A stretch of 64,000 bases of DNA from a virus (IMGVR_UViG_2744054962_000001); one strand, 5' to 3'. Shown: positions 5,446-52,106, counted from the stretch's first letter. Notes: generated by a model not told the origin, from the letters alone. Program-made: numbers and translations.

Positions 5446-5460
5446 AAAACAATTTGTTTT
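5446..5460. promoter_or_regulatory. Palindromic operator-like site AAAACAATTTGTTTT
   Basis: Perfect 15-bp palindrome; first copy of the repeated AAACAAnTTGTTT family. Confidence 0.5.
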
Positions 5461-5478
5461 CTACCTTTTGTTGATTGA

Positions 5479-5510
5479 GATAATAAGCCACATAAGAAAA
5501 CAAATTGTTT
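5479..5510 (+). promoter_or_regulatory. Early promoter/operator motif (GATAAT..ACA..GAAAACAAATTGTTT)
   Basis: Palindrome AAACAA-A-TTGTTT immediately upstream of RBS AGGAG and ATG 5516. Confidence 0.5.
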
Positions 5511-5515
5511 AGGAG

Positions 5516-5764
5516 ATGAAGATGTTTGGAACAGCAAAAGAAATCATCGAGAAACTGAAAAACTATCCAGAAGACGAACCCTTACTCATGGTTATGTGGC
5601 ACAAAGAAGATATTGCTGAAGTAAGGACAGATCTCACTGATGAACAATGCGTACAGGTGATGCAAAAAATCAGACAATGCCATAACGCTGATGTCGGCGT
5701 TAATTGGGAGGTTATATCAACTACGGCGAATGAGTTGTTTCCGAACGAGGTGGTAAAATGCTGA
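5516..5764 (+). CDS. Hypothetical early protein (82 aa)
   Basis: ORF with AGGAG RBS; start 5516 or 5522. Confidence 0.5.
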   Translation: MKMFGTAKEIIEKLKNYPEDEPLLMVMWHKEDIAEVRTDLTDEQCVQVMQKIRQCHNADVGVNWEVISTTANELFPNEVVKC

Positions 5765-5946
5765 AACTCACCAAATTGTATAAGACGACAGTTAGTAGCC
5801 CTACCCTCGTTACACAGCATGACTCTGAGTGTCTACCAAATATCTGTTTCGAGCACCATACGATCTCGGACTCAATTGGGTACAGAAACGGAGTATGGGG
5901 GAGTCAGGGGAGGGAAGAAAAGCTGCGTGATTACGGTGTCACATAG
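5758..5946 (+). CDS. Hypothetical small protein (62 aa)
   Basis: ATG overlaps upstream stop (ATGCTGA), suggesting translational coupling; no recognised domain. Confidence 0.3.
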   Translation: MLKLTKLYKTTVSSPTLVTQHDSECLPNICFEHHTISDSIGYRNGVWGSQGREEKLRDYGVT

Positions 5947-6058
5947 CAAACCATCAAGAACATTCGAAAGGTGCTCGATGTAGGATTTGATGCGGTACAA
6001 TTCCACCCTGACGCTGAAATAGACGATGGTCTGGAAAATTGGAAATTGTGAGGGATAA

Positions 6059-6457
6059 ATGAAATATGCACCATTGGCACTAATATTTTTTGTGCTTTCT
6101 GCTAATGCCACGCCAGTTGAAGAGCCTAACACTATCGTGTACCCACGATGCATGAAAATAGATCCGGAAACACACAAGCAATTACCTGGTTACAATATTG
6201 TTATGGATATAGGGAATAAATTTAAAATCGTTTCCCCAAATGGGAATTCGGTGATATCCATCTCGCTTGCCCAAAGTGAAAAAGATAGGAACATGTTCGA
6301 CGCCTCAGTCGGCGATGTTTACTTCTCTCGTTACCATGTTCAACCTGATGGGAACTTTCTATACTCAGCCTGGAGTGAAAAGGCGAAAGTTACAGTGCTG
6401 TGTAATGGTAAAAGCGGTGAGCGGCATTACGTTGACCCTATTCATTTCGAGAACTGA
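6059..6457 (+). CDS. Hypothetical exported protein with N-terminal signal peptide
   Basis: MKYAPLALIFFVLSANA-TPVEE signal-peptide-like N-terminus; GAGGG RBS. Confidence 0.6.
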   Translation: MKYAPLALIFFVLSANATPVEEPNTIVYPRCMKIDPETHKQLPGYNIVMDIGNKFKIVSPNGNSVISISLAQSEKDRNMFDASVGDVYFSRYHVQPDGNFLYSAWSEKAKVTVLCNGKSGERHYVDPIHFEN

Positions 6458-6589
6458 CTACACAAGTAAACAAATCAATCAGTTGATAATGGCGGTCACA
6501 ATTTGATTCTTTTCTATAAGAATCCGTTGATCGCCACTACTCCCCTTCCATACCTGCAATCACATCCTTAAATATCAATAAGTTATGGT

Positions 6590-7370
6590 TGTTTATACAA
6601 ACAAGAAAACAACTGAATAACAGATCAACGAAACGTCAATGCTTTCTCCCGATTTGGTCTAAAAAATTGACGTTTTCACACATCACTTCTTATACCCGTA
6701 ATTCTACGCAGCATATAGCGCCACAGCGTCCAAATTTCACCACAGACGACCCAACACACTACCAACAAAAACACACGCTCAAAATCGCTCCCGTTGCGTT
6801 ACACAACCATATAAACAACTTATTTTCAGGCATAACAAAACAACTAAATAACACACATGCCATTCCCCAAAACAACCAACCTCTTTATGGCAGGCTACCG
6901 AAAAGACCCACCTCTTCTCCCCAGGCTACCGGACAACCAACCTAACTTTCACAGGCAATCCGAAAACATTCATACGCGCGATACCCACGACACGCCATTC
7001 CCCAAACAGCGAAGAAACACCAGAATCACTGAAACCCCAACGAAGCCTGTAACAGCAAGGTTTCTCTCAATCCCAAAAGACACGAAACATAACAATCACG
7101 GGAAACGCCATTACCCAATACACGAATAACTACAAAAGCCCTTCACACTACAGACAAACAACTCAAACACAATAACGAAAGGAATCGCCCACCTGCCATT
7201 ACTCCATACACGGAGAAGAACAATCACCAAAACGACGAGAACACCCCATAGAAGAACCACCGCAAAACTAACGAAACCACATACACCGACAGGGAAAACA
7301 ACACACCCAATTCACCAACAGAAATAGTCGCCGTATAGAACGTTCTGGAAGGAGTGAGCATTAACGCCTA
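6590..7370 (+). other. A+C-rich, G-depleted stretch with no credible ORF (candidate untranslated RNA / Rho-loading region)
   Basis: Top strand dominated by A and C with CAA/ACA/CCAAC motifs; ORF-track ORFs here translate to low-complexity P/T/Q/N-rich peptides. Confidence 0.55.
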
Positions 7371-7537
7371 TAGAGAGGTTGAGACAGATAAAACACGAAG
7401 AAAACACAACATGTATAGCGAAGAAGCCAGGTATGTATAAGTGGGGAGGGAAGGAGGGGTGTCGCCTCCTTTTTCGTATTTATTCAACTCCTGATTTTAT
7501 CCCCCGTAACACCCCTACGGTCAGCCTTCGGTCCATA

Positions 7538-7676
7538 CAGGGAAAAGGTTGCATCCCGCTACAGAAACGGCTGGGTTGCCTTCGGGGAACGGCTGGAGGT
7601 TTTCAGGGAAACGGTCGAGTTGCCTGTGTGGATTTCGGGAAAAGGCTCGATGCCGGTTCAGGAACGGCGGCGTACC
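7538..7676 (+). repeat. Array of six direct repeats (iterons), consensus approx GGGAAACGGCTGGGTTGCC
   Basis: Six copies at roughly 21-32 bp spacing: 7538, 7562, 7583, 7604, 7636, 7659. Confidence 0.7.
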
Positions 7677-7987
7677 GGTATAGCGTGAGGGAGAGTTGCG
7701 GCTACCCACCTGTAATGTGCGGGAAGAAGAGAGGCGCTCACGTGCAGGCGAACTTACTTACCGCTGGATTCCCTCTGAATGCCCAGCTACAGCGTAATTG
7801 TGCCAGACAGCCAACGGGTCACAATCGATTTCAGTAGGTTTTCGGGGAGAGGATTATTCTGCCCACCAGCCACCTTCGGCCACTAAATCAGAATAATGTA
7901 AAAAGTGTACTCGATACTGAACCTGAAAACTCACTGCCAAAACAACATTCACCGGAATAAAATCCTTTTTCGCCTGTGCGTTATTGC

Positions 7988-8019
7988 GATAATAACACCA
8001 ACGAGAAAACAAGTTGTTT
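7988..8019 (+). promoter_or_regulatory. Conserved early promoter/operator (GATAATAACACCAACGAGAAAACAAGTTGTTT)
   Basis: One of four near-identical 32-bp copies (7988, 8471, 10126, 10610) ending in the AAACAAnTTGTTT palindrome; upstream of ATG 8032. Confidence 0.6.
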
Positions 8020-8031
8020 AAGGATTGCTTT

Positions 8032-8361
8032 ATGTTTGCAAATATCGACATCAACCAAATCAAGAAATTAACTCAAAAAGAGTTTGATCAGTTTTATGAG
8101 TTAGAAGGTTGGTCTTCCACTCTGATTAATTCAAGATGGGTGCTGGAGCTGATGACTCGTGATGACGCACCTGCTTTGATGATTTGCGACATGGGTGAAG
8201 ATGCTGACTTTATGGATATGAGCGAATTTTGTGTGGACACATACAACCGCAGCCAGAAGTACTACTTCACATGCGATAGCGAAAATGACGTGATTTCTAA
8301 GGTCTATCTTCACCTCGTCCAGCATTGGGACGTTCAGGAGTTTCTTGAGGTATTCGCGTAA
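8032..8361 (+). CDS. Hypothetical early protein (109 aa)
   Basis: ORF track 8014..8361; ATG 8032 preferred (AAGGA RBS, downstream of operator). Confidence 0.55.
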   Translation: MFANIDINQIKKLTQKEFDQFYELEGWSSTLINSRWVLELMTRDDAPALMICDMGEDADFMDMSEFCVDTYNRSQKYYFTCDSENDVISKVYLHLVQHWDVQEFLEVFA

Positions 8362-8470
8362 TCCCAACCAAAGCCAGCAATGCTGGCTTAATTTCTCTAT
8401 AGCCGCAGGGAGGAACCTGCATATCGATCATGCACCTGATCATTATGCTTTGTAGCCGTTTTCTTACTGG

Positions 8471-8503
8471 TATTATTTACGCCATTGAGAAAACAAGTTG
8501 TTT
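8471..8503 (+). promoter_or_regulatory. Conserved early promoter/operator copy
   Basis: TATTATTTACGCCATTGAGAAAACAAGTTGTTT upstream of ATG 8515. Confidence 0.6.
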
Positions 8504-8514
8504 ACGGAGTTGTG

Positions 8515-8826
8515 ATGAAAAAATCATTGGTTCTTGGTCTGGACAAAGACCAGAAGAGAAAAGAGAAGCCTGCGCTGGTTGCTCAATTAACTTTGCTGGA
8601 CATCGTTGCCAATGGAACCTCTATTCGTCTGTTCCGTGAAACAGCGGTGTCTTTCGATAAAAACACCTTTACTCGTTATGTAATGAATGTTCGTCGCCAG
8701 CGTGGAAAAGGCTGGATGGCATTTCAAAGAATGTGGCCGGAACATCAGCTCGAACTGGCTTTGATGGAAGTTAACCGCGTGGCCCAGCAAGAAATTCAGA
8801 GAGCATCAGTGATGGCAATAGCCTGA
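8515..8826 (+). CDS. Hypothetical early protein (103 aa)
   Basis: ORF track 8485..8826; ATG 8515 lies after the operator. Confidence 0.55.
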   Translation: MKKSLVLGLDKDQKRKEKPALVAQLTLLDIVANGTSIRLFRETAVSFDKNTFTRYVMNVRRQRGKGWMAFQRMWPEHQLELALMEVNRVAQQEIQRASVMAIA

Positions 8827-8861
8827 TAATGTGCAAGTGGTAATTAGTCGACCGTACGACA

Positions 8862-8889
8862 GCCCCGCCATCCTTACGGGGCTTTTTTT
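8862..8889 (+). terminator. Rho-independent terminator
   Basis: GCCCCG..CGGGGC stem followed by TTTTTTT. Confidence 0.6.
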
Positions 8890-8953
8890 GTATTGTAAGT
8901 ACATACTTACGATCATAGAATATAAAAATAACCAATACACTACGGAGAGTGAA

Positions 8954-9349
8954 ATGACCGTTAAACGCGAAAAACTGACAGTTGATGTTTACTATGCCTC
9001 TGAAACCGCCGAAGGTAAGAATGTGGCAAAAATCACCGTTGTTACGTACAACACCGAAACTGGTGCCGAAGTCCAGGCCAGTACGATCGTGCGTAAAGGT
9101 GATGCCTCCGGCGGCGAGTACGCGACTCAATACCAGTCCATTCTCGATGCAACTGACCCGCTGCTGCTGAAAATCGAGAACTACTTCCGCCAGGTTGATG
9201 AGGAGGTGTTTGAAACCATGATGAATATGGTTAACACCGTATTCGCCTCCAGCCTGAATACCAACACTACCTGGATTGGTCAGTACGGCCTGCGCATTAC
9301 CTCCGGCATTCCTGCTGACACCTTAATCCCTGAAAGCGTATTCGCTTAA
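8954..9349 (+). CDS. Hypothetical protein (131 aa)
   Basis: ATG 8954 with GGAGAG RBS; upstream part of track ORF 8831..9349 overlaps the terminator. Confidence 0.55.
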   Translation: MTVKREKLTVDVYYASETAEGKNVAKITVVTYNTETGAEVQASTIVRKGDASGGEYATQYQSILDATDPLLLKIENYFRQVDEEVFETMMNMVNTVFASSLNTNTTWIGQYGLRITSGIPADTLIPESVFA

Positions 9350-9361
9350 TCCTCTTTGAAT

Positions 9362-9385
9362 GGCGCGTAAACCGCGCCATTTTCT
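9362..9385 (+). terminator. Rho-independent terminator
   Basis: GGCGCGTAAACCGCGCC hairpin followed by ATTTTCTT. Confidence 0.55.
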
Positions 9386-9392
9386 TATGCCC

Positions 9393-9408
9393 GATAACAA
9401 TTTGTTTT
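9393..9408. promoter_or_regulatory. Operator-like palindrome (GATAACAATTTGTTTT)
   Basis: Near-perfect member of the AAACAAnTTGTTT family. Confidence 0.45.
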
Positions 9409-9466
9409 CTGCCTTATCTGATTTGTGAAAATGATTTCACTGAAGCAACTTAATAAGGAAACCATC

Positions 9467-9841
9467 ATGGGACTTGATATCTATATCGAGACACAGCCTA
9501 AAAACGATCTGAATAACGAGGCATCCAGAAAGCAGGTTGCTTACTTCCGTAAGTTCAATGCGCTCGTTGGGTGGATGGAGCGCAACGTAGGTGAAGTCGA
9601 AAATTGTGAGCTTTTAGAATTAACGATGAATGACATTTGTTTTCTGAAGGCTCATTTGATGCACATAAACGAAAGTAATTGCGAAGAGTACTTGCCTACC
9701 CGGGAAGGTTTTTTCTTCGGCAGTCAGGAGTACGATGAAGGTTACTGGCATGATGTGGGGCAGTTGAAAGAGCTTGTGGAAGATCTGATTAAGAACCACG
9801 ACTTTCACAATAACAGACTGACCTTCTGCGCCTGGTGGTAA
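9467..9841 (+). CDS. Hypothetical protein (124 aa)
   Basis: ATG 9467 with AAGGA RBS (track ORF starts 9425). Confidence 0.5.
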   Translation: MGLDIYIETQPKNDLNNEASRKQVAYFRKFNALVGWMERNVGEVENCELLELTMNDICFLKAHLMHINESNCEEYLPTREGFFFGSQEYDEGYWHDVGQLKELVEDLIKNHDFHNNRLTFCAWW

Positions 9842-9844
9842 ATA

Positions 9845-9988
9845 TGGGCGATTTCAAGAAACGCCTGAAGGAAAGAGCCGAGATGGTCAGAAAGCAAAAC
9901 GCCTCTTCTGTCATCAGATACGCAAGGCAGTTTAGTCGCAACAACAAATCAGTTGAGGAAAAGATCCTTAGCGTAATCGGTCGATAAT
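9845..9988 (+). CDS. Possible small protein (47 aa)
   Basis: ATG 4 nt after upstream stop; below track size cut-off; no other support. Confidence 0.25.
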
Positions 9989-9992
9989 TATT

Positions 9993-10016
9993 AAGGCCAC
10001 CAGCATTGGTGGTCTT
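9993..10016 (+). terminator. Hairpin, copy 1 of repeated ATTAAGGCCACC..GGTGGCCTTAAATGAC element
   Basis: Inverted repeat AAGGCCACCAGCATTGGTGGTCTT; near-identical copy at 10464. Confidence 0.45.
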
Positions 10017-10125
10017 AAATGACTTTTAATAACCGAAGGTTAGTTTGAAACCTGGCTATCAACTTCCAGAACCTTTCTTGTGTATTCAGCCTGTATTAAC
10101 TTCTTTTATGCCTTATCTACACTGC

Positions 10126-10157
10126 GATAATTACACCAACAAGAAAACAACATGTTT
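10126..10157 (+). promoter_or_regulatory. Conserved early promoter/operator copy
   Basis: GATAATTACACCAACAAGAAAACAACATGTTT; lies inside track ORF 10045..10458, so the true start is downstream. Confidence 0.6.
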
Positions 10158-10176
10158 ACGCAGTGAGGATATGCTC

Positions 10177-10458
10177 ATGACTGATTTCACCATTACCCCT
10201 AAAGCACAAAATGTATTCCTTGAATCATGGCTGGACTTGCCGGAAACAGAACAGCAAGAAATGGATCATGTGGATTATGACGAGCAGGTAAGCACGCGAT
10301 TCTTCCACTTTGAGGGATGCGTTTACGACATTGCCGACTTCATGCGAGATGACCGCTTCCCTGAATGGCACGCAAGCTATCCACTAAACGCCTTTGCCAT
10401 GCTGATGATCCGTGTGGATGATTCAGGGGATACCATCGACATCGGTCTGCTCCACTAA
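10177..10458 (+). CDS. Hypothetical early protein (93 aa)
   Basis: GAGGA RBS 7 nt before ATG 10177. Confidence 0.5.
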   Translation: MTDFTITPKAQNVFLESWLDLPETEQQEMDHVDYDEQVSTRFFHFEGCVYDIADFMRDDRFPEWHASYPLNAFAMLMIRVDDSGDTIDIGLLH

Positions 10459-10463
10459 AGATT

Positions 10464-10487
10464 AAGGCCACCAATGCTGGTGGCCTT
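10464..10487 (+). terminator. Hairpin, copy 2 of repeated element
   Basis: Perfect palindrome AAGGCCACCAATGCTGGTGGCCTT followed by AAATGAC. Confidence 0.5.
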
Positions 10488-10497
10488 AAATGACCAT

Positions 10498-10572
10498 CCT
10501 GTTTCCCGCAGGCTAAAAACACCAACCTCTTACCTCCAGGCAACCGACAAACCCACCTGTTCCCGTCCGGCT
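10498..10572 (-). repeat. Iteron-like repeats in reverse orientation (CCTGTTTCCCG..)
   Basis: CCTGTTTCCCGCAGGC and CCTGTTCCCGTCCGGC contain the reverse complement of the GGGAAAC core; CAGGCTACCG-type motifs shared with 6893-6960. Confidence 0.45.
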
Positions 10573-10609
10573 ACCGCAACTTTCCACTTTGACGCCTTAT
10601 TCGTACAAC

Positions 10610-10641
10610 GATAATTAACACCAACAAGAAAACAATATGTT
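10610..10641 (+). promoter_or_regulatory. Conserved early promoter/operator copy (degenerate palindrome)
   Basis: GATAATTAACACCAACAAGAAAACAATATGTT upstream of ATG 10663. Confidence 0.5.
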
Positions 10642-10662
10642 ATTTACGATAAGGAATTAATC

Positions 10663-11145
10663 ATGAATTTTATCGCTACTGTAAACGCACCCGCACATGG
10701 CAATATCGCTGTAACGTTCTCTGACATTGAAAAACGAGTACTTGGTGCATGGCGCGACAATGAGACGGTAGAACTGTCAGCACAAGAAAAATGCATTATT
10801 GCACGCGACATCATTGGCAATCGTCGTTACTCGCGGGTATTTGAGAAAGCGTATGTGGTAAATTCTGGATTCGGAACGTTCGTCTTTCCGGTGCGCTCCG
10901 GGCGATTCTGCCAGTCCAAGCTGATTGAGTTCGCTACGCAGATTTCTGTCTGGATTAAAACTCAATCGTCGTTCAAATTTTCCGACGATGAAGCAGTATC
11001 GCAGGGGATGCGGATCGCCAACAATGCGATTAAATGCAAAAACATTACGTATACCGCTGGCGTTGATACATGGAAACTGTTTTGCGCTAACTTTATGCTG
11101 AATGTATACGCAAGCAACCGCATCCACATCCTTGATGGCGTGTAA
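10663..11145 (+). CDS. Hypothetical protein (160 aa)
   Basis: ORF with AAGGA RBS; followed by hairpin GGGCCAGAAACGGCCC. Confidence 0.55.
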   Translation: MNFIATVNAPAHGNIAVTFSDIEKRVLGAWRDNETVELSAQEKCIIARDIIGNRRYSRVFEKAYVVNSGFGTFVFPVRSGRFCQSKLIEFATQISVWIKTQSSFKFSDDEAVSQGMRIANNAIKCKNITYTAGVDTWKLFCANFMLNVYASNRIHILDGV

Positions 11146-11154
11146 CTGAGAAGA

Positions 11155-11275
11155 GGGCCAGAAACGGCCCTTTCTCTATAGCCACCAGCTGCCTCAGGGA
11201 AATTTTCAGAAACGGCGAGGAACGTATTCATAAGCCGACGGGAAACGGCCAGGATTTTTTCGGGAAACGGCTGCA
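11155..11275 (+). repeat. Second iteron cluster (GAAACGGC core, at least 4 copies)
   Basis: CAGAAACGGCCC, CAGAAACGGCGAGG, GGGAAACGGCCAGG, GGGAAACGGCTGCA. Confidence 0.55.
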
Positions 11276-11724
11276 TTCGCCTTTATGTAGAAAAAACATC
11301 GGGAAGCTGGTGGAATCCAACCAGCGGTTGTCGGACAGGTGAGCGGGGAAAATTATGATGACTTTCGTCACCTGAGACATCCAGATTTCTTTCGTAGCGT
11401 AATCACATACGTGATTAAGTGGTGTGATTATGTGAAAAATCACGCGCACATAATACGCGAGCGGATACAGAACAACACAAAATGCCGATCCGCGCCGACA
11501 AATAAACGCGGATCACATAGCAAGAATAAAAGCCAATGATTAGCCATACACCATAACGCAATATAACGCGATTTAAGCGCGTTAATGCGCTAAGTAATGG
11601 GTATGTACTGGTAAGGATATAAAAGCGCGTCTATGGCGTTATTTTGGCGCTTATTTTTATGTTGTTGGTGTGAGTCAAAGACAATAAAAAACGCGCTAAT
11701 GATGGCGCGTTATGGTGGGAGTAT

Positions 11725-11755
11725 TGGAAACGAAAAAAGCGCCCATAGTGGGCGC
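11725..11755 (-). terminator. Rho-independent terminator (hairpin GCGCCCATAGTGGGCGC, copy 1)
   Basis: 17-bp palindrome at 11739-11755 followed on minus strand by T-run; just after stop of 11762..11992. Confidence 0.65.
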
Positions 11756-11761
11756 TCGATT

Positions 11762-11992
11762 TTATTTATGTAAACTGATTTCAAATCCCATTTCTACAAA
11801 CGCTTTTAACATTAAAAATATATCAGCGTCATTCACGTCTGCTTTTTTTCGCTCCTGGTCGCTCAATAAGTCAATTTTGCGCGTCGTTTCATCTATAAGC
11901 TCGACTGCGCGCCCAGCGTAACCAGCGATCCCAGCGATGCGATTAACAAAATATTCATTGCGCACGTTAACGCCAGCGATAAGAATAAACAT
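11762..11992 (-). CDS. Hypothetical small protein (76 aa) bracketed by identical terminator hairpins
   Basis: AAGGAG RBS 7 nt before ATG; identical 17-bp hairpins on both sides. Confidence 0.55.
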   Translation of the reverse strand: MFILIAGVNVRNEYFVNRIAGIAGYAGRAVELIDETTRKIDLLSDQERKKADVNDADIFLMLKAFVEMGFEISLHK

Positions 11993-12005
11993 GATTAAGC
12001 TCCTT

Positions 12006-12026: not shown

Positions 12027-12039
12027 CAGATTCCATTAA

Positions 12040-12985: not shown

Positions 12986-13510
12986 TTAAAATGGAAGGAT
13001 TCGTTCAACCCAATCGAAGAAAACAAGTATTTTTCTGCCGTCTTCTAACTTAAGAGTGACCTGGCAAGCATCAACGCCTCTTGACACCCCTTCTATTTCA
13101 CGACCGTCTGTCATGTAGACCCTTATAGATTGGTCGTTTTGATAAGCCTTGCGACATATCGCAAAAAAGTCACGGCGTGATGGCTGATTGTCAACATAGT
13201 CTGGATGTATTGTTAGCCTACCTTTGAACTCGCGAGCAATGCCATCGATTACACCTGATTCAATTGTGCTAATGCGCTCAAGTGGGAGTCTTATACGATT
13301 TTCTTTATCATATGGAATCGGGCATAAATCTAGCTTATTGCGTGAAGGCATTGTCCCCTGAACGTACATGCAAAACACCTGACCGTCTTCAAGCGTGACT
13401 CTTACAGGAATGTTGTTCTTCCGCCAGAACATAAGTATGTTCTCAGCATGTTCGTAGTCTCGCGGCCAGACTTCAGCCGGTATGCCGTAGGTGATGTCCA
13501 ATGTTCTCAT
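12986..13510 (-). CDS. Hypothetical protein (174 aa), AT-rich island
   Basis: Stop overlaps upstream gene by 4 nt (coupled); no recognised motif. Confidence 0.55.
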   Translation of the reverse strand: MRTLDITYGIPAEVWPRDYEHAENILMFWRKNNIPVRVTLEDGQVFCMYVQGTMPSRNKLDLCPIPYDKENRIRLPLERISTIESGVIDGIAREFKGRLTIHPDYVDNQPSRRDFFAICRKAYQNDQSIRVYMTDGREIEGVSRGVDACQVTLKLEDGRKILVFFDWVERILPF

Positions 13511-20217: not shown

Positions 20218-20484
20218 ATGACGTTAACCGATAAACAAAAGGACATCATCAAAACGCTCAATCTCGGTTATGAGCGAGGTCATTTACTTGATCTGGACGA
20301 ATTGCTTGAAGTTTTGCCGTACAAGACAACCAAGCAAAGTATCCAGTTCTCAATTCGCGCTCTGATAAAAAAGGGGCTGGTGGAGAAAGGGCATACGCGC
20401 CAACGCAGTGACAATCGCTATCACCGCCGAACTCTTGGGTTAACCACTTTAGGTCGAGCCAAAGCGAAGTTACTGGTGATGTAA
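20218..20484 (+). CDS. Small basic protein, possible winged-helix DNA binder (88 aa)
   Basis: AAGGA RBS; K/R-rich; fold assignment tentative. Confidence 0.4.
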   Translation: MTLTDKQKDIIKTLNLGYERGHLLDLDELLEVLPYKTTKQSIQFSIRALIKKGLVEKGHTRQRSDNRYHRRTLGLTTLGRAKAKLLVM

Positions 20485-20601: not shown

Positions 20602-20642
20602 GAAAACAAGTTGGTTAGCAGATGCAGTAAACAAGTTGTTTT
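20602..20642 (+). promoter_or_regulatory. Two tandem operator palindromes upstream of terminase genes
   Basis: GAAAACAAGTTGGTT at 20602 and AAACAAGTTGTTT (perfect) at 20629. Confidence 0.55.
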
Positions 20643-20681
20643 AGAGCGCATGGACGCGCTCTGTGTGTTTTAGAGGGATCT

Positions 20682-21314: not shown

Positions 21315-22570
21315 TGGCAATCCCGTCCTCGCTCAGTCTTGTGCAACTGCATTCTGGACAGATGAAAGTCTTCCAGTCTCCGCATCGATTTAAAGTTGTT
21401 TGTGCTGGTCGACGCTGGGGAAAATCCCGGTTGTCGATCTCCACTATTATTCGTGCGGCGGCAAAGGAAAAAAAGCAAAGAGTCTGGTATGTCGCTCCTA
21501 CTTACCAGATGGCTCGCCAGATTTTGTGGGACGATCTACAGGAAGTTCTGCCTCGTAAGTGGGTTAGGAAAAAGAACGACACCACGATGACAATCGTGTT
21601 GAAGAACGGTTCGGAGATCGCCCTCAAAGGTGCTGATAAGCCTGACACTCTGCGCGGCGTAGCGTTGCATTTTGTAGTGCTTGATGAATTTCAGGATATG
21701 AAGGCTGACACCTGGTACAAGGTGTTACGACCTACTCTTTCATCGACACGCGGCGGTGCGCTGATCATTGGTACGCCAAAAGGCTTCTCGGAATTTCACA
21801 AACTGTGGACTATAGGCCAGAACGTAGAGCTGCAAAGAAAGGGACAGTGGAAGAGCTGGCAGTTTGTAACTGCCGATTCTCCGTTTGTACCTACGGCGGA
21901 AATTGAAGCTGCTAAGAACGATATGGACCCCAAATCGTTCGCTCAGGAGTACCTGGCGAGCTTTGAGAACATGTCCGGGCGCGTTTACTACCCGTTCGAT
22001 CGTAACGTGCATGTAAAACCGCTTCAGTTCAACCCTCGGTTGCCTATATGGGTAGGGCAGGACTTCAACATTGACCCGATGTCTTCCGTAATTTTGCAAC
22101 CTCAGCCAAATGGTGAGCTATGGGCAATTGATGAATTGGTGCTCTTTTCCTCTAACACGGCAGAGGTTTGTGATGAGCTTGAGAGACGCTTCTGGCGCTG
22201 GAAATCACAGATAACGGTATTTCCAGATCCGGCAGGTGCTTATCGCCAACATGCTCGCGGGGAGTCTGACGTCGACATATTCAAAGAGAAGGGATTCTTA
22301 CGTGTCGATTATTCGAAAAAGCACCCGCCAATTGCGGATCGTGTTAATGCTGTTAACCGAATGCTGATGACCGCATCTGGAGATATCCGGCTGTATATCG
22401 ATCCGAAGTGCAAGCATTTGATTGATTCACTGGAAAAAGTCATCTACAAGCCTGGAACACGAGATATGGATAAGACAGGTGGCATTGAGCATAGTGCAGA
22501 CGCATTGGGCTATCCAGTACATCGTAGGTATCCAGTCAAAAACCGTGTTATTCTTGGTGGTTCTCGATAG
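21314..22570 (+). CDS. Terminase large subunit
   Basis: 418 aa; Walker A CAGRRWGKSR, Walker B-like VVLDEF; position before portal. Confidence 0.85.
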   Translation: MAIPSSLSLVQLHSGQMKVFQSPHRFKVVCAGRRWGKSRLSISTIIRAAAKEKKQRVWYVAPTYQMARQILWDDLQEVLPRKWVRKKNDTTMTIVLKNGSEIALKGADKPDTLRGVALHFVVLDEFQDMKADTWYKVLRPTLSSTRGGALIIGTPKGFSEFHKLWTIGQNVELQRKGQWKSWQFVTADSPFVPTAEIEAAKNDMDPKSFAQEYLASFENMSGRVYYPFDRNVHVKPLQFNPRLPIWVGQDFNIDPMSSVILQPQPNGELWAIDELVLFSSNTAEVCDELERRFWRWKSQITVFPDPAGAYRQHARGESDVDIFKEKGFLRVDYSKKHPPIADRVNAVNRMLMTASGDIRLYIDPKCKHLIDSLEKVIYKPGTRDMDKTGGIEHSADALGYPVHRRYPVKNRVILGGSR

Positions 22571-22583
22571 GTAAGTAATTATC
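22566..22583 (+). promoter_or_regulatory. ATAAGTA-family promoter-like motif
   Basis: GATAGGTAAGTAATTATC, 14 nt upstream of portal ATG. Confidence 0.45.
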
Positions 22584-45870: not shown

Positions 45871-45880
45871 AGGAGGAGTA

Positions 45881-46263: not shown

Positions 46264-46286
46264 GATAGGTAAGTGCATACCTATAT
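46264..46286 (+). promoter_or_regulatory. ATAAGTA-family motif (ATAGGTA..TACCTAT inverted repeat)
   Basis: Upstream of lysis cassette. Confidence 0.45.
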
Positions 46287-46346
46287 AAAAAAGATAAAAT
46301 GTGATATAAATCCGCCATCCCGATTTGACTTTTCATGGAGGAAAAT

Positions 46347-46670: not shown

Positions 46671-46683
46671 CAGGAGATCAAGG

Positions 46684-47376: not shown

Positions 47377-47377
47377 T

Positions 47378-47629: not shown

Positions 47630-47765
47630 ACCACAAACAGCCAGCGTGTTGTTCTGCGATGGGGCTGAGCCTATCTATATCAGCAATAATGATGTAATGA
47701 CTGAAGAAACCGAACGCCAAATCCTTTTTCACAATACGATGGGAGAGAGGGTTTGTGGTTGGTGA
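47550..47765 (+). CDS. o-spanin (Rz1-like lipoprotein)
   Basis: Lipobox ISGC after short hydrophobic leader (real start possibly ATG 47580); overlaps i-spanin 3' end. Confidence 0.55.
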   Translation: MRRAVKYVRKMLLPFIVSCMISGCVIKPQTASVLFCDGAEPIYISNNDVMTEETERQILFHNTMGERVCGW

Positions 47766-47772
47766 TGTCGAA

Positions 47773-47794
47773 GTTCCCCTCAAATGAGGGGAAC
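47773..47794. terminator. Bidirectional hairpin between lysis genes and toxin gene
   Basis: GTTCCCCTC-AAAT-GAGGGGAAC. Confidence 0.55.
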
Positions 47795-47797
47795 ACA

Positions 47798-48319: not shown

Positions 48320-48326
48320 GAGTAAA

Positions 48327-48596
48327 CTACTCCATGCTTTTCAGACGATCAGCAGCTCGTTTCAGCTTGTCGTTCGGTGCCGGAGGATTGCTTATAGCGT
48401 CCATAACCAGATTCCAGGATTCTTCATTCAGAACTAGTCTACGGTGTTGCTCTATAACTTTCACGGCACGTTCAGATGCACTGCTAACCATAAACTGAGT
48501 AATGCTCTGGTTAGACATTGCGGCAGCTTCCTCGATGATGCTTTTATCGTCATCGGTTAATCTCAAATCGATGCGCTGCTTTTTTAGTGCTGACAT
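48327..48596 (-). CDS. RHH antitoxin (DUF1778/TacA-like)
   Basis: 89 aa from ATG 48596 (AGGAGG RBS); immediately upstream of GNAT toxin. Confidence 0.7.
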   Translation of the reverse strand: MSALKKQRIDLRLTDDDKSIIEEAAAMSNQSITQFMVSSASERAVKVIEQHRRLVLNEESWNLVMDAISNPPAPNDKLKRAADRLKSME

Positions 48597-48864
48597 GTAT
48601 TCCTCCTGATGGCCGTGATGTAGGAAGGCCATCAATCTCCTCTGTTCAAACTGAGTTTTCGACTCAAAAATTACTTTAAAAGGCTATAGCCCATTACGTG
48701 TGCATTATCAAATTGTGTACGGCATATCACCGTACTTGTAATATAGAGGTCATTGTTACTTTTTTCAACAGACAAATACAAGCTATGATTGCCAATTGTT
48801 AATCACAACCTACCATTTAACCTTTACACCGCAGCCGTAGGCATTTAGGCTATATCACATATAA

Positions 48865-48879
48865 GAAAACAAGTTGTTT
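48865..48879. promoter_or_regulatory. Operator palindrome GAAAACAAGTTGTTT upstream of parA
   Basis: Perfect AAACAAGTTGTTT core 36 nt before parA ATG. Confidence 0.55.
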
Positions 48880-48914
48880 CAGACGATAATTATATACGCA
48901 AAGGGAACTCTCCA

Positions 48915-49583
48915 ATGACCAAGATCTTTGTGGTTGGCGGCACAAAGGGCGGGCCTGGCAAATCCACCGTTGCCCAGCAAATTGCCGTTTGCCTGAAAGT
49001 CAAAAAGAAGAAGAAGGTTTATATTACCGATATAGATATTCAGCGCACGACAACGAGCTGGTGTGAAGACCGTCGACAGAACGAAGACCTTGAGCTGATT
49101 CCTTTTGCATACGTTCAGGATGACATCATTAAGCACCTAAAATCGCTTCAGGGTAGAGCTGAGTTTGTAGTGGTAGATGCTGGTGGCTTCGACTCCGAAA
49201 TTCAGCGACAAGCGATGCTGATGGCTGACGTTATCATTATCCCGCTGCGTCCTAAGCGTCGTGATTTGAAATCTTTACGTGACATCGATCCTATTATCGA
49301 CAATGTTCGCAATGTAAACGATAAAGTGAAGGTCCGCGCGGTCATGAACCAGTGCCCGGCTTTGCCATCACAAGTGTCTCGCATTCTGGCGGCTAAAGAG
49401 ATTGTTGAGACGTTTGGAATCGAGTCTGCGCCAGTCAATCTATATAACCGCAACGTCTATGATGATGCGGAAGAGTCTGGTCGTTCTATCTTTGAAATGA
49501 CCGGTAGCGAGCGCGACAAAAAGGCGGAAGCCGAGTTTGAAGAATTTGTAGATTATCTGTTGAGTCTGGAGGAAGAAGAATAA
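48915..49583 (+). CDS. parA: ParA-family partition ATPase (small, type Ib-like)
   Basis: Deviant Walker A GGTKGGPGKST; 222 aa. Confidence 0.85.
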   Translation: MTKIFVVGGTKGGPGKSTVAQQIAVCLKVKKKKKVYITDIDIQRTTTSWCEDRRQNEDLELIPFAYVQDDIIKHLKSLQGRAEFVVVDAGGFDSEIQRQAMLMADVIIIPLRPKRRDLKSLRDIDPIIDNVRNVNDKVKVRAVMNQCPALPSQVSRILAAKEIVETFGIESAPVNLYNRNVYDDAEESGRSIFEMTGSERDKKAEAEFEEFVDYLLSLEEEE

Positions 49584-49942
49584 TGTCCATGAAAATGGGT
49601 GACCTAGCAAAGCGCAAAGAGCCTGATGCACCGGCTAAGAACACAACTCCTTTGCGCCAACCAGTCAGACCACAAGGACGCCCGACTCGTGGCAAAGAGA
49701 AAATTAAAAGCCGCACTATGTCACTGGAAGACGAATACTTCGAGCTTCTGGAAATGATGAAGTTTATCCCTCGTTTCGAGAAGTTCACCCGCTCTGATGT
49801 GATTCGTGCTGCTATTTTCCATCTGGCAGAGAAGTCACCGCAGGAAATCGAGGACATCGTAAAGCTGAACGAGGCGATCACAGCTGCCGATGTCACGATG
49901 CGTACCGATGAAATTAAACGCGAGTTGATGAAGAAAGGTTAA
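49583..49942 (+). CDS. Small partition partner protein (RHH/ParG-like, putative)
   Basis: TAATG overlap with parA; basic N-terminal tail then RHH-like segment. Confidence 0.5.
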   Translation: MSMKMGDLAKRKEPDAPAKNTTPLRQPVRPQGRPTRGKEKIKSRTMSLEDEYFELLEMMKFIPRFEKFTRSDVIRAAIFHLAEKSPQEIEDIVKLNEAITAADVTMRTDEIKRELMKKG

Positions 49943-49945
49943 TAA

Positions 49946-49978
49946 TGTGGGCTGTCTAGCCCACATTATTTTAATTAA
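49946..49978 (+). terminator. Rho-independent terminator
   Basis: TAATGTGGGC-TGTC-TAGCCCACATTA followed by TTTTAATT. Confidence 0.6.
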
Positions 49979-49993
49979 AGTGGAGTGATAATT

Positions 49994-50746
49994 ATGCATT
50001 CGTTAGTATTTGCATTTAAAAACATACTCAAGAATGTTATAAACATACTAGGGATGTTAAATATTTTTTTGTCTGTGAGGGTGAGGAGAAAAGATATAAA
50101 AGATAAATTAAAGGAACTTAACAAAGAAAAAGAACAATTAAAAAGCGAAGAAATTATTATTGATTTATACAAGAAAAAACTCGCATCTAGCAAGGGGAAA
50201 GCTAATGATAAAATCAAAGGAAAAATAATTCACTATATTATTGCTAGAGAGTTGGGGAATGATCCTGATAATGAAGATTTGCGACATAATCTTTTTACAA
50301 AGATAAAAGAATCAGAAGAACAGGTTGAAGTTCTGGTTCATCAAAGAGAAGTAAGTGAGCAGGCGAACAAAAAAGAAACGGTTGTCAATTTGTTTTTATT
50401 GTATGAAAAAAATAAATTGTTTAAAGCTAAGGGGTTGGCTGTGTTTCTTATAGTTATAAACTTAATTATAGTTGCGACTCTCGATCTTCCAGCTTGGTCA
50501 TTGATTATAAGTTTTTTTATTCTCTCTTTGATTATGTTGAAAGATCAGATACTTACTATTCGTGTCTCTAAAGGATATTTTGGCACAAGTGCGTATGAAG
50601 CGGTTCAATTGCTTAAATTCATCAGAGAAAATTCAGACAAATTTGACTCAGATGATAATGACGGTAGCCCACGACGGATATTGAATCCGAAGGGAACAAC
50701 AAAAAAATCAGACAACCTATTCGATAAAGGGTGGCAAAATGTTTGA
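49994..50746 (+). CDS. Hypothetical membrane protein (250 aa), AT-rich
   Basis: GGAG RBS; K/E-rich N-terminal region then two hydrophobic segments. Confidence 0.5.
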   Translation: MHSLVFAFKNILKNVINILGMLNIFLSVRVRRKDIKDKLKELNKEKEQLKSEEIIIDLYKKKLASSKGKANDKIKGKIIHYIIARELGNDPDNEDLRHNLFTKIKESEEQVEVLVHQREVSEQANKKETVVNLFLLYEKNKLFKAKGLAVFLIVINLIIVATLDLPAWSLIISFFILSLIMLKDQILTIRVSKGYFGTSAYEAVQLLKFIRENSDKFDSDDNDGSPRRILNPKGTTKKSDNLFDKGWQNV

Positions 50747-51161
50747 CCTTGACGCCATCACTAAGTTCTTAAATCAGTGTTTTGATCTACTTTTGCTCAA
50801 GCAGCCTTTAAGAACTGTTTTCGGAATACTGATTGGTTTCATTATTTTTGTTTTTGTTTACACGTTTAGGTTTGCGATAGCTCAAGATTTTTATGAAATA
50901 GATGGTGTGCATTACGCTGCATGTTTCGTCATCGGTGTTTTAGTTGTTCACACAAGAACATTTTTTGACGTTATCAAGGGCACCGCAGTTGATGAAGAAA
51001 TAGATAGTATGATCAGAGTTATTACGAAGCAGCCACACCTATCTAACCATCAAAAAAACATAATGATTGCTGAAATACTTCAAAAAGAAATTGCAGCCAT
51101 AAGTCAAAAGAGATTGGATAAAGTTGCACAAGAAATAACGGAGAAAAAGACAACTGATTAA
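50739..51161 (+). CDS. Hypothetical membrane protein (140 aa), AT-rich
   Basis: Start overlaps upstream stop; two predicted TM helices. Confidence 0.5.
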   Translation: MFDLDAITKFLNQCFDLLLLKQPLRTVFGILIGFIIFVFVYTFRFAIAQDFYEIDGVHYAACFVIGVLVVHTRTFFDVIKGTAVDEEIDSMIRVITKQPHLSNHQKNIMIAEILQKEIAAISQKRLDKVAQEITEKKTTD

Positions 51162-51169
51162 TTTAATTA

Positions 51170-51224
51170 CCTGTTTCTGTATATAAATAATAAGTAACTT
51201 ATTAAATATATATACGGAAGCAGG
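51170..51224. repeat. ~55-bp AT-rich imperfect palindrome, copy B
   Basis: CCTGTTTCTGTATATAAATAATAAGTAACTTATTAAATATATATACGGAAGCAGG; flanking TTAAAGAC indicates inverted orientation relative to copy A. Confidence 0.8.
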
Positions 51225-51307
51225 TCTTTTAAAAGACACCCACCAGAACAACTCCCTTCCGTTTCCACTTCCAAAAACTGCCACCAGTCGCTATCATCCG
51301 CTCATTG

Positions 51308-51330
51308 TGATAAGTAAGTAACTACCTACC
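51308..51330 (+). promoter_or_regulatory. ATAAGTA-family motif
   Basis: TGATAAGTAAGTAACTACCTACC upstream of 51342 gene. Confidence 0.45.
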
Positions 51331-51341
51331 AGGTGAGCCAC

Positions 51342-52082
51342 ATGAGCCAAATCTTTTTCGATACCATCGACAACAACCAGTACGACTTCATGACAGAGTG
51401 GAATACCGCTGTTATGGACAAGTGGGTTGCTGAAAACATTGGTTTGTCGCGCTGTAAAGACGAGGCTGAACTCTTCGAGACGAAGTGGTTTGATTATCGC
51501 GACATGCATCCTCTCATGGCCACCTGTCTTTTTACGGAGGCATACAAACGTCAGTACTCAAATATCATGCTGACGCACGGTCGCGAACACTTTGAAACAG
51601 CTCCGTTCACCACCGGGTTAAAACGTCTGCCTTATCAGGAGTTGTCGACTGCCAACAAAACGTCGCTATGGAAAGCACGCCAGTTTGCGGATCGCTATTG
51701 CTGCTCATACGACTACTTTATCTCCACCGTTCTTTCCGCAGCTGCACGACGGCTGTGGGACAAGCTGCCGCGCCCACAGCATTTGTGGCAGCCAGAACTG
51801 ATTGAGATATTTGAAGAGAAATTAGCCAGACGCGCAACAACCCGTCTGGATGACTCTCTGGTTAGCTTTAAGCATATGGGAGACATGCAGTTCAACCCGA
51901 TTCAGGAAAGCTATTTTGAGTGGATTCTGGAGCGTTTGCGCACCATCCCTCGCAGTAAGCGCATACGCGCAATTTTCTCCGCTATCTGGCTAATGGAAAT
52001 CGTTCCAGAGCGCCTTATTTCCGCCCACTTTCCAGAAGAACTGGAAGAAGCACGGCGGTTTATTGATCCCCTATCTAATTAA
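51342..52082 (+). CDS. Hypothetical protein (246 aa), possible replication initiation or helicase-loading factor by position
   Basis: AGGTG RBS; precedes DnaB-like helicase. Confidence 0.45.
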   Translation: MSQIFFDTIDNNQYDFMTEWNTAVMDKWVAENIGLSRCKDEAELFETKWFDYRDMHPLMATCLFTEAYKRQYSNIMLTHGREHFETAPFTTGLKRLPYQELSTANKTSLWKARQFADRYCCSYDYFISTVLSAAARRLWDKLPRPQHLWQPELIEIFEEKLARRATTRLDDSLVSFKHMGDMQFNPIQESYFEWILERLRTIPRSKRIRAIFSAIWLMEIVPERLISAHFPEELEEARRFIDPLSN

Positions 52083-52091
52083 CTAATACTA

Positions 52092-52106
52092 GAAAACAAT
52101 TTGTTT
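52092..52106. promoter_or_regulatory. Operator palindrome GAAAACAATTTGTTT upstream of helicase gene
   Basis: Member of AAACAAnTTGTTT family, 20 nt before ATG 52126. Confidence 0.55.

What the first reader, a model, noticed from the sequence alone, without database searches (positions are those of the whole stretch)
5446..52106. Repeated palindromic operator AAACAAnTTGTTT at eleven sites, four within a near-identical 32-bp promoter unit
Perfect or near-perfect copies lie upstream of early genes (5446, 5496, 8005, 8489, 9394, 10143, 10628), the terminase genes (20602, 20629), parA (48865) and the DnaB-like helicase (52092). Four copies share an extended unit GATAAT-ACACCAAC-AGAAAACAAnnTGTTT. 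This looks like a single regulon controlled by one dimeric DNA-binding protein, plausibly the phage repressor or an early activator, linking early genes, partition and replication. The regulator is not identified; the XRE protein at 63420 and the small protein at 20218 are candidates.
Basis: seen in the sequence. Interest (0 to 1): 0.5.

Follow-up and report, generated by a model that had tools for sequence, protein, structure and literature searches.

The report
Dispersed palindromic operator of SSU5-like phage-plasmids
A 13-base palindrome, AAACAAnTTGTTT, sits at a fixed place in about a dozen promoters of this phage-plasmid and in about twenty promoters of each of its relatives, which marks it as the binding site of one still unidentified repressor that keeps viral genes off while the virus lives as a plasmid.

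Summary
The window has 7 perfect copies of AAACAAnTTGTTT (0.01 expected) and 12 copies with at most 1 mismatch (0.53 expected). Nearly all lie between genes.

The window is an SSU5-like phage-plasmid, about 98% identical to E. coli LF82 phage Cyrano over 4000-12000. The motif is unchanged at orthologous promoters in Cyrano, SSU5, two Klebsiella lineages and Y. pestis pMT1, although the flanks have diverged. Related plasmids of Moellerella and Acinetobacter lack it.

There are two fixed layouts:
- The palindrome starts 13-14 bp after an extended -10 (TGnGATAAT), so it is centred near +13.
- The palindrome sits just after a terminator hairpin, centred near -38. It is often paired with a +13 site exactly 51 bp away.

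In published LF82 lysogen RNA-seq, most genes behind these sites are near background. This geometry fits a repressor operator. It does not fit an activator site or an RNA element.

The regulator is unresolved. The XRE protein has a different palindrome, GGTAAGTRCTTACC, over its own promoter, and that palindrome varies along with the XRE sequence. The protein at 20218 is silent in lysogens and conserved where the motif is absent. The best candidate, at about 35%, is the small protein after ParA (49583-49942).

This is a new member of a known kind. No description was found in the papers searched.

The parts
5447..5459 (.). Motif A, upstream-type operator (AAACAATTTGTTT followed by TCT), centred about -38 of the promoter below
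   Evidence: 51 bp centre-to-centre from 5498
5476..5484 (+). Extended -10, TGAGATAAT, of the cassette promoter
   Evidence: inferred promoter, no start-site data
5498..5510 (.). Motif A, downstream-type operator (AAGA-AAACAAATTGTTT), 13 nt after the -10 and 11 nt before the ATG of ORF 5516/5522-5764
   Evidence: sequence identity with Cyrano ends right after this site
6813..6825 (.). Motif A with 1 mismatch (AAACAACTTATTT), in an A/C-rich stretch. Conserved as a perfect site in SSU5 and pJN2-26.
   Evidence: inside a doubtful annotated ORF
7985..8019 (+). Promoter-operator unit TGCGATAAT-N13-AAACAAGTTGTTT; ATG at 8032
8468..8503 (+). Promoter-operator unit TGGTATTAT-N14-AAACAAGTTGTTT; ATG at 8515
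9395..9432 (+). Upstream-type operator TAACAATTTGTTT directly after a terminator hairpin, then TGTGAAAAT as extended -10. Likely start is ATG 9467 with SD AAGGAAA.
10123..10157 (+). Promoter-operator unit TGCGATAAT-N13-AAACAACATGTTT; ATG at 10177
10607..10642 (+). Promoter-operator unit GATAAT-N14-AAACAATATGTTA (2 mismatches here, 1 in Cyrano); ATG at 10663
20604..20641 (+). Two motif A sites 25 bp apart (AAACAAGTTGGTT, AAACAAGTTGTTT) ahead of the small terminase gene and the late operon
   Evidence: the pair is conserved in Cyrano, SSU5 and pMT1 (single site in pJN2-26 and kp2)
20642..20663 (+). Terminator-like hairpin with T tract in the terS leader, between the operators and ATG 20682
   Evidence: -13 kcal/mol; conserved in SSU5 and pJN2-26
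48867..48879 (.). Motif A in the parA promoter, 21 nt after the conserved TAGGCTATA and 35 nt before the parA ATG at 48915
   Evidence: it is the only repeat or palindrome conserved in parA promoters across lineages
52094..52106 (.). Motif A ahead of the DnaB-like helicase (ATG 52126)
49583..49942 (+). Candidate regulator CY29: 119-aa protein whose start overlaps the stop of the ParF-like ParA. It has a conserved N-terminal MGDLAK, a disordered basic arm and a probable ribbon-helix-helix core (SRTMSLEDE...FTRSDVIRAAI).
   Evidence: expressed in the lysogen
63420..63806 (-). XRE-type HTH protein, convergent with the integrase. It is a candidate, but its own promoter carries motif B (63838-63851).
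20218..20484 (+).

Best explanation
AAACAAnTTGTTT is a double-stranded DNA operator. It sits inside host-RNA-polymerase (sigma-70 type) promoters that rely on an extended -10 and have no good -35.

A symmetric, oligomeric repressor made by the phage-plasmid in its plasmid (lysogenic) state binds it at about +13, at about -38, or at both. Pairs are 51 bp apart, about five helical turns, so the two sites face the same side and a loop could form. Binding blocks initiation or promoter escape. About 12 transcription units in this window and about 20 per genome are held off in this way. They include accessory early cassettes, helicase-primase-ligase, cobT-dnaE, nrdB and the late operon, and the same site throttles parA.

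What is shown: enrichment, intergenic location, fixed geometry, conservation across diverged relatives, and low expression of the downstream genes in a lysogen. What is inferred: the start sites, the repression itself and the identity of the protein.

My best single candidate for the binder, at about 0.35, is the small protein encoded after the ParF-like ParA (49583-49942), which looks like a ParG/omega-type ribbon-helix-helix centromere-binding protein. If so, the palindrome would serve both as the par operator or centromere and as a genome-wide silencer.

The terminator-operator-promoter-operator unit also acts as a conserved junction at which unrelated cargo genes are exchanged.
For: Enrichment: 7 perfect sites against 0.01 expected and 12 near-perfect against 0.53. 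Intergenic bias has p = 5e-7.

Geometry: among 44 downstream-type sites in four genomes, the best -10-like hexamer ends 13-14 nt before the palindrome in 21 cases, often with a TGn extension. The start codon usually follows 11-21 nt after the site. Upstream-type sites share TTGTTTTCTrCCTTTTcttatcTGtGAAAAT. Paired sites are 51 bp apart seven times and 25 bp apart five times.

Conservation: 18 sites in Cyrano, 20 in SSU5, 17 in pJN2-26 and 20 in a Klebsiella lineage whose ParA is 68% and CY29 49% identical. The sites sit at the same promoters with diverged flanks.

Expression: in LF82 lysogen RNA-seq the downstream genes score 5-13 against a median of 9.8. Exceptions are parA at 50, the helicase at 21 and CYRAN_111 at 25 (PMC9928086 table S1).

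Not RNA: the hairpin energy is -0.7 kcal/mol with z = -0.5. Upstream-type sites lie upstream of the inferred promoter, outside the 5' leader of the gene they precede.

For CY29 as the binder:
- It is co-transcribed with a ParF-like ParA and expressed in the lysogen at 89.
- The motif is the only conserved palindrome in parA promoters.
- Its putative DNA-contact segments SRTMS.EDE and FTRSDVIRAAI are invariant across homologues about 50% identical, as is the motif.
- Two family members give a weak RHH_1 Pfam hit, E = 0.005.
- Half-sites with centres 7 bp apart match omega-type heptad spacing (my knowledge of that system).
Against: No binding, start-site or reporter data exist. Silence in the lysogen would also follow if the promoters were simply weak.

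Against CY29:
- The fold is not established. The AlphaFold monomer has pLDDT 63, and there is no significant match to the PDB, ParG or CopG.
- Type Ib centromeres are normally repeat arrays, and only one palindrome lies at parA.
- pMT1 keeps 4 sites but has no CY29.
- Phage SSU5 lacks the int-XRE region but keeps parA-CY29, and is used in a biocontrol phage cocktail (the paper on its plaques or lysogeny was not held). If it grows lytically, that is easier to explain if XRE rather than CY29 is the silencer.
- It is unclear how SOS induction would relieve a partition protein.
- parA itself is expressed despite a perfect site.
Confidence: 0.6

Rival explanations
1. The XRE protein next to the integrase (63420-63806) is the master lysogeny repressor and binds AAACAAnTTGTTT directly. 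The design would resemble P1 C1, with one repressor and operators dispersed over the genome.
For: XRE is expressed in the lysogen at 96. It is present next to an integrase in 865 plasmids. It is absent from phage SSU5, which lacks the int-XRE region between the tRNA gene and cobT that relatives carry. A strong LexA box lies just after the integrase promoter's -10, and the integrase gene converges on XRE. This offers an SOS route to lower XRE and fits ciprofloxacin induction of Cyrano. In the Acinetobacter relatives, which lack the other candidates, one palindrome family occupies both the XRE promoter and the early promoters.
Against: No motif A site lies in the XRE/CY46 divergent region. Instead GGTAAGTGCTTACC starts 1 nt after the TAATAT -10 of the XRE promoter. 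That motif B family is retained, with changes, in every lineage including those without motif A. It shifts (TAGGTAAG to TAAGTAAA) in the Klebsiella lineage where the first residue of the XRE recognition helix changes from K to E, while motif A does not change. XRE identity ranges from 100% down to 48% across genomes with an invariant motif A.
Confidence: 0.2
2. The binder is another phage-plasmid protein found only in lineages that carry the motif. Candidates are the 71-aa winged-helix-like protein at 58824-59039 (CY37), the Cra-like 70-aa protein (outside this window) and the FljA-like protein at 12986-13510. It would act as a lytic-phase feedback repressor (for CY37 or the Cra-like protein) or as a second immunity repressor.
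For: These three proteins have homologues in every lineage with the motif that was checked and none in Moellerella or Acinetobacter, which lack it. CY37 and the Cra-like gene sit in operons headed by a motif A promoter, so they would be self-limiting. The putative helix PKTRAKLER of CY37 is nearly invariant at 54% overall identity.
Against: CY37 and the Cra-like gene are at background in the lysogen (6.4 and 13.4), so they cannot explain lysogenic silence. The FljA-like protein is only 34% identical in a lineage with an unchanged motif, and its family is known (from my memory of the FljA literature) to bind RNA. None has a demonstrated DNA-binding fold.
Confidence: 0.15
3. A host protein of Enterobacteriaceae binds the site. 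It could be IHF, which the sequence loosely resembles, or an unrecognised transcription factor.
For: The motif is invariant across phage-plasmids whose own proteins have diverged to about 50% identity. It is confined to elements of Enterobacteriaceae and to Yersinia pMT1, and is absent from Morganellaceae and Acinetobacter relatives. It matches 11 of 13 positions of WATCAANNNNTTR.
Against: The two departures from the IHF consensus (A at position 3, T at position 13) are themselves invariant, and the site is strictly two-fold symmetric, unlike IHF sites. I know of no E. coli factor with this consensus (from memory). Invariance is also expected for any regulator with 20 or more sites.
Confidence: 0.1
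4. The sequence is not a protein-binding operator. It would instead be an RNA leader element, or only a conserved linker for homologous recombination between gene cassettes.
For: Downstream-type sites fall in the predicted 5' leaders, 8-30 nt before the start codon. Sequence identity between the window and Cyrano ends exactly at the edge of the 5498 site, so the unit does serve as a recombination junction.
Against: The RNA hairpin is negligible at -0.7 kcal/mol. Upstream-type sites lie outside the leaders and in mirror orientation. A linker alone would not need perfect dyad symmetry, fixed spacing to the -10, or conservation at core genes such as parA, the helicase and terS, where no cassette exchange is seen.
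Confidence: 0.05

Closest known systems
Phage-plasmid P1 C1 repressor and its dispersed operators
   Same: Both are plasmid-prophages in which many operators scattered over a roughly 100-kb genome place unlinked lytic, replication (helicase) and late-control genes under one regulator. In both, the operators overlap or follow the promoters.
   Different: P1 operators are asymmetric 17-mers (ATTGCTCTAATAAATTT, from memory). The window has no match better than 4 mismatches. The motif here is a 13-bp perfect dyad. A C1 homologue was not specifically searched for.
Global regulators that double as partition proteins: KorB/KorA of IncP-1 plasmids and omega of pSM19035
   Same: Short palindromes or heptad pairs recur at many promoters and tie replication, partition and other functions together. 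KorB and omega are also the centromere-binding partition proteins. That matches the CY29 hypothesis and the site in the parA promoter.
   Different: The sequences are unrelated: there are no KorA sites and only chance-level KorB-like matches. Omega uses arrays of 7-10 heptads, whereas here there are single or paired palindromes. CY29 has no detectable sequence similarity to KorB, and its similarity to ribbon-helix-helix proteins is weak.
N15 prophage SopB centromere sites dispersed among phage promoters
   Same: A phage-plasmid carries palindromic partition sites spread around its genome, some inside promoters of phage genes (from memory).
   Different: N15 has four sites and a type Ia SopAB system. 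Here there are about 20 sites at a fixed distance from the -10, and the ParA is type Ib, ParF-like.
PeSL cassettes (promoter-early stem-loop) of T4-type phages
   Same: A conserved composite of terminator stem-loop plus early promoter flanks variable small genes and acts as the junction for modular shuffling (PMC2839356, PMC4122927). Here a terminator-operator-promoter-operator unit flanks variable cargo, and identity with Cyrano ends at the unit's edge.
   Different: PeSLs are not described as containing a repressor operator, as far as I know (only their titles and abstracts were seen). This unit contains one or two dyad operators, and the same operator is also used at core genes.
lac O1-type repression from a site just downstream of the start
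   Same: In both, the operator is centred about +11 to +13, and auxiliary operators allow looping.
   Different: This is only a mechanistic analogy. There is no LacI-family protein or CG-centred operator here.

Membership tests
P1 C1-type operator regulon | 17-bp asymmetric operator consensus ATTGCTCTAATAAATTT | tested here: not met
   The best matches in the window have 4 mismatches and are not at the motif sites.
P1 C1-type operator regulon | Many operators dispersed over a plasmid-prophage genome at promoters of unlinked genes | tested here: met
   12 sites in the window and 17-20 per complete genome (18 in Cyrano), at promoters of early, replication, partition and late genes.
Type Ib partition operator/centromere bound by a ribbon-helix-helix protein (ParG, omega) | Site lies in the promoter upstream of a short Walker-type ParA | tested here: met
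   Site 48867 lies 35 nt before parA. The closest solved homologue of this ParA is ParF of TP228.
Type Ib partition operator/centromere bound by a ribbon-helix-helix protein (ParG, omega) | Array of several tandem repeats forming the centromere | tested here: not met
   Only one palindrome lies at parA. No repeat array is found upstream or downstream, and the sequence after the small gene is not conserved.
Type Ib partition operator/centromere bound by a ribbon-helix-helix protein (ParG, omega) | Partner protein has a ribbon-helix-helix fold with a flexible N-terminal tail | tested here: inconclusive
   The N-terminal 47 residues are predicted disordered and are followed by helices at 48-60 and 70-84, but pLDDT is only 63. 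Two family members hit RHH_1 at E = 0.005. PDB and hhalign comparisons are not significant.
Type Ib partition operator/centromere bound by a ribbon-helix-helix protein (ParG, omega) | The protein binds the site | not testable with these tools
   This needs EMSA, footprinting or ChIP.
IHF binding site | WATCAANNNNTTR, asymmetric | tested here: not met
   All perfect sites match 11 of 13 positions on both strands. They depart from the consensus at the same two positions and are strictly symmetric.
LexA (SOS) box | CTGT-N8-ACAG | tested here: not met
   The motif does not fit this pattern. True LexA-like boxes lie elsewhere, at 1608 and 62278.
Structured RNA leader element | Stable hairpin or a match to a curated RNA family | tested here: not met
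   Hairpin energy is -0.7 kcal/mol with z = -0.5. Rfam finds only three tRNAs in the window.
PeSL-like mobile regulatory cassette | Conserved promoter plus stem-loop unit flanking variable genes, with recombination breakpoints at the unit | tested here: met
   The upstream-type unit follows terminator hairpins. The window/Cyrano/SSU5 alignment shows identity confined to the unit, with different genes on either side. Only one junction was examined.

The most novel reading that the evidence does not exclude
The ParG-like partition adaptor encoded after ParA is also the genome-wide silencer of the lytic programme. About 20 dispersed palindromes would then act at once as a scattered centromere and as operators. 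Plasmid segregation and the lysis-lysogeny state would be read out by one protein, and the role would have been acquired within the enterobacterial SSU5 lineage. The Moellerella relative keeps only a degenerate site at parA.
Probability: 0.3. Interest if true: 0.75.

Novelty: new member of a known kind. Interest (0 to 1): 0.45.

Why it matters
SSU5-like phage-plasmids are common in clinical Enterobacteriaceae. About 800 PLSDB plasmids encode the proteins examined here. They include pHCM2 of S. Typhi, pMT1 of Y. pestis and, according to a paper abstract, phage-plasmids carrying resistance genes. I found no paper describing how they control lysogeny.

The operator gives a concrete, testable map of the regulon. 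It can serve as bait to identify the repressor by pull-down, and as a sequence signature for the family. It also defines a compact, portable unit of terminator, operator, promoter and operator. That unit explains how accessory genes are swapped while remaining under prophage control.

If the partition protein turns out to be the binder, this would be a new link between plasmid maintenance and phage development.

Tried and rejected
- FljA link. I recalled a similarity between the motif and the fliC leader. I fetched the E. coli fliC upstream region and found no resemblance, so the idea was dropped.
- RNA hairpin. Folding gives a negligible structure.
- Standard sigma-70 scan. It found none of the cassette promoters, because they lack a -35. 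They are extended -10 promoters instead.
- A centromere array near par. None was found, and the inverted repeat after the small gene is a non-conserved terminator.
- Looking for CY29 homologues outside SSU5-like elements, to test whether the protein and the site travel together. The family is tiny: 25 clusters, 18 representatives among 1.84 billion proteins and 6 genome loci, all SSU5-like. One hit in a 188-kb plasmid was an IS-truncated fragment.
- PDB and profile searches for CY29, XRE and the FljA-like protein. Nothing significant was found.
- AlphaFold on CY29. The monomer model had low confidence, so no fold search was run.
- Exact-pattern scan of IMG/VR. Most contigs with several matches are about 90-112 kb (a few are 52-77 kb), and otherwise there were scattered single chance hits. 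It was not informative beyond that.
- Two papers could not be read: a 2026 preprint on phage-plasmid heteroresistance and the 2014 SSU5 paper.
- Pfam on ten cassette and neighbouring ORFs. No families were found.

Full report
**Identity of the window.** Region 4000-12000 is about 98% identical to Escherichia phage Cyrano (OV696614), the pLF82 phage-plasmid of E. coli LF82, and is related to Salmonella phage SSU5 and to Klebsiella phage-plasmids. I fetched seven relatives for comparison:
- Cyrano
- SSU5
- Klebsiella pJN2-26
- Y. pestis pMT1
- a distant Klebsiella plasmid, NZ_CP125183, called 'kp2' below
- a Moellerella plasmid
- an Acinetobacter plasmid

AAACAANTTGTTT occurs 7 times exactly (0.01 expected) and 12 times with at most 1 mismatch (0.53 expected). 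The '10628' site is at 10630 and has 2 mismatches. Site 6813 was missed, and 50410 is probably a chance match inside an AT-rich ORF. With 90% of the window counted as coding, 9 of 13 sites still fall in the non-coding 10% (p = 5e-7). No site lies in the 28-kb late operon between 20641 and 48867.

**Anatomy.** Pooling Cyrano, SSU5 and pJN2-26 gives two classes.
- Downstream type, 37 sites: a -10 element (often TGnGATAAT), then 13-14 nt, then AAGA-AAACAAnTTGTTT, then usually 11-21 nt containing a Shine-Dalgarno sequence, then ATG. If transcription starts about 7 nt after the -10, the dyad is centred near +13.
- Upstream type, 16 sites: the dyad follows directly after a terminator hairpin and is followed by TCTrCCTTTTcttatcTGtGAAAAT. 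This puts it near -38 of the next promoter.

Paired sites are 51 bp apart seven times, as at 5447/5498, and 25 bp apart five times, as at 20604/20629. The generic sigma-70 scan misses these promoters because they have no -35. As RNA the motif folds at only -0.7 kcal/mol, and Rfam finds only tRNAs in the window.

**Conservation.** The motif is unchanged at the same promoters in four genomes: 18 sites in Cyrano, 20 in SSU5, 17 in pJN2-26 and 20 in kp2. In kp2, ParA is 68% and the small par protein 49% identical to the window's. The promoters include terS, parA, the helicase, cobT, nrdB and the accessory cassettes, and the flanks are strongly diverged. pMT1 keeps four sites. The Moellerella and Acinetobacter relatives have none with this architecture. 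Acinetobacter instead has 27 sites of AGTCAGTACTGACT in the same promoter positions. Moellerella has eight copies of TATAAATACTATGGGAGCTAGGC.

**Expression.** Table S1 of PMC9928086 gives LF82 lysogen RNA-seq values for every Cyrano gene. Genes downstream of motif sites score 5-13 against a median of 9.8. The exceptions are parA at 50, the helicase at 21 and CYRAN_111 at 25. The paper also reports that Cyrano is induced 39-fold by ciprofloxacin.

**Mechanism.** A dyad placed at +13 or -38 of otherwise constitutive-looking promoters, with in-phase pairs and silent downstream genes, fits a repressor operator. An activator site upstream of a promoter is excluded at 5498, because only 11 nt separate the dyad from the ATG.

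**Who binds?** I considered six kinds of candidate.
- *XRE (63420-63806).* It is expressed in the lysogen (96) and is found beside an integrase in 865 plasmids. SSU5 lacks it. However, its own promoter (TTTACA-N17-TAATAT) is followed 1 nt later by a different dyad, GGTAAGTGCTTACC. This 'motif B' recurs before the holin gene (46268) and, in relatives, before the portal, nrdA and dam genes. It persists in modified form in Moellerella, kp2 and Acinetobacter. It changes in kp2, where the XRE recognition helix changes, while motif A does not. XRE is therefore more likely to bind motif B.
- *The 20218 protein.* It is at background in the lysogen (7.8), and its helix is conserved in genomes without motif A.
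- *CY29 (49583-49942).* It overlaps the stop codon of a ParF-like ParA and is expressed at 89. Its segments SRTMS.EDE and FTRSDVIRAAI are invariant across homologues about 50% identical. Two family members give a weak RHH_1 hit. Motif A is the only conserved dyad in parA promoters. Against it: the fold is unproven, there is no repeat array, pMT1 lacks it, and SSU5, which is used in a biocontrol phage cocktail, retains it.
- *CY37, the Cra-like protein and the FljA-like protein.* Their presence and absence across lineages tracks the motif. The first two are silent in lysogens.
- *A host factor.* This cannot be excluded.

My estimates are CY29 0.35, XRE 0.2, another phage-plasmid protein 0.25-0.3, and a host factor 0.1-0.15.

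**Cassette behaviour.** The window and Cyrano are identical through 5447-5510 and then encode unrelated genes. SSU5 shares the window's downstream gene but differs upstream of the unit. This resembles the PeSL cassettes of T4-type phages.

**Literature.** Searches on SSU5, pHCM2 and phage-plasmid regulation found no description of this motif or its regulator. Two possibly relevant papers were not held.

**Verdict.** The motif is real, conserved and functional-looking. It is a new member of the known class of dispersed-operator regulons.

Noticed in passing
window 63838-63851, 46268-46281, 22570-22583: A second conserved dyad, ataGGTAAGTRCTTACCtat. It overlaps the start site of the XRE promoter. 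It also lies 18 nt upstream of TGTGATATAAA before the holin gene and, in degenerate form, between the large terminase and portal genes. In SSU5 and pJN2-26 it also precedes nrdA and dam and follows the capsid gene. Its half-site changes between lineages (TAGGTAAG, TAAGTAAA, ATCAGTCAG). This looks like a second regulon, probably that of XRE.
   Followed up: partly
window 62255-62300 and 1608-1623: A near-consensus LexA box, TACTGTTTACTTATACAGTA, starts immediately after a TTGATC-N17-TAATAT promoter upstream of the integrase. The integrase gene converges on the XRE gene, and the two overlap by 6 nt. SOS-driven antisense transcription across XRE is therefore a possible induction route. A second CTGT-N8-ACAG box lies 36 nt before the UmuD-like ORF at 1644-2033.
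   Followed up: partly
window 20642-20672: A terminator-like hairpin with a T tract (-13 kcal/mol) lies in the leader between the two operators and the small terminase ATG. It is conserved in SSU5 and pJN2-26. This suggests the late operon also needs antitermination or is attenuated.
   Followed up: partly
window 5510/5511; Cyrano 93177: Sequence identity between the window and Cyrano stops exactly at the downstream edge of the operator, and a different gene follows. The promoter-operator unit is therefore a recombination junction for cargo exchange.
   Followed up: partly
window 61500-62054 (- strand): A 184-aa ORF of unknown function scores 7084 in LF82 lysogen RNA-seq, about 720 times background and by far the highest value for the element. 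It is absent from SSU5, pJN2-26 and pMT1. It may hide a small RNA or encode a lysogenic-conversion product.
   Followed up: no
window 6000-8000: An A/C-rich stretch with strong AT skew (+0.20) and negative GC skew contains the 6813 site and doubtful ORFs. It may be non-coding.
   Followed up: no
window 12986-13510 (- strand): This ORF gives a full-length match to the FljA family (repressor of phase-1 flagellin, E = 9e-81) and a weak Hfq-like hit at residues 123-165. It is conserved only in lineages that carry motif A.
   Followed up: partly
L138-L140 (Acinetobacter plasmid NZ_CP035046): There are 27 sites of atcAGTCAGTACTGACTgat at promoter positions equivalent to both motif A and motif B. An asymmetric variant, AGTCACTACTGACT, lies mainly at late-gene positions and, at every such site seen, on the same (+, coding) strand. 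The parA promoter there has its own GTATTACC repeats.
   Followed up: partly
L141-L143 (Moellerella plasmid NZ_CP093251): Eight copies of TATAAATACTATGGGAGCTAGGC, plus a near-copy at terS, occur partly at positions (the helicase-region operon and terS) where the enterobacterial relatives have motif A. The unit looks superficially like a T7-type promoter.
   Followed up: no
window 60254-60498: Three tandem tRNA genes lie here. Cyrano annotates them as Asn, Thr and Ser. A short ORF annotated over them in Cyrano probably reflects tRNA reads.
   Followed up: no
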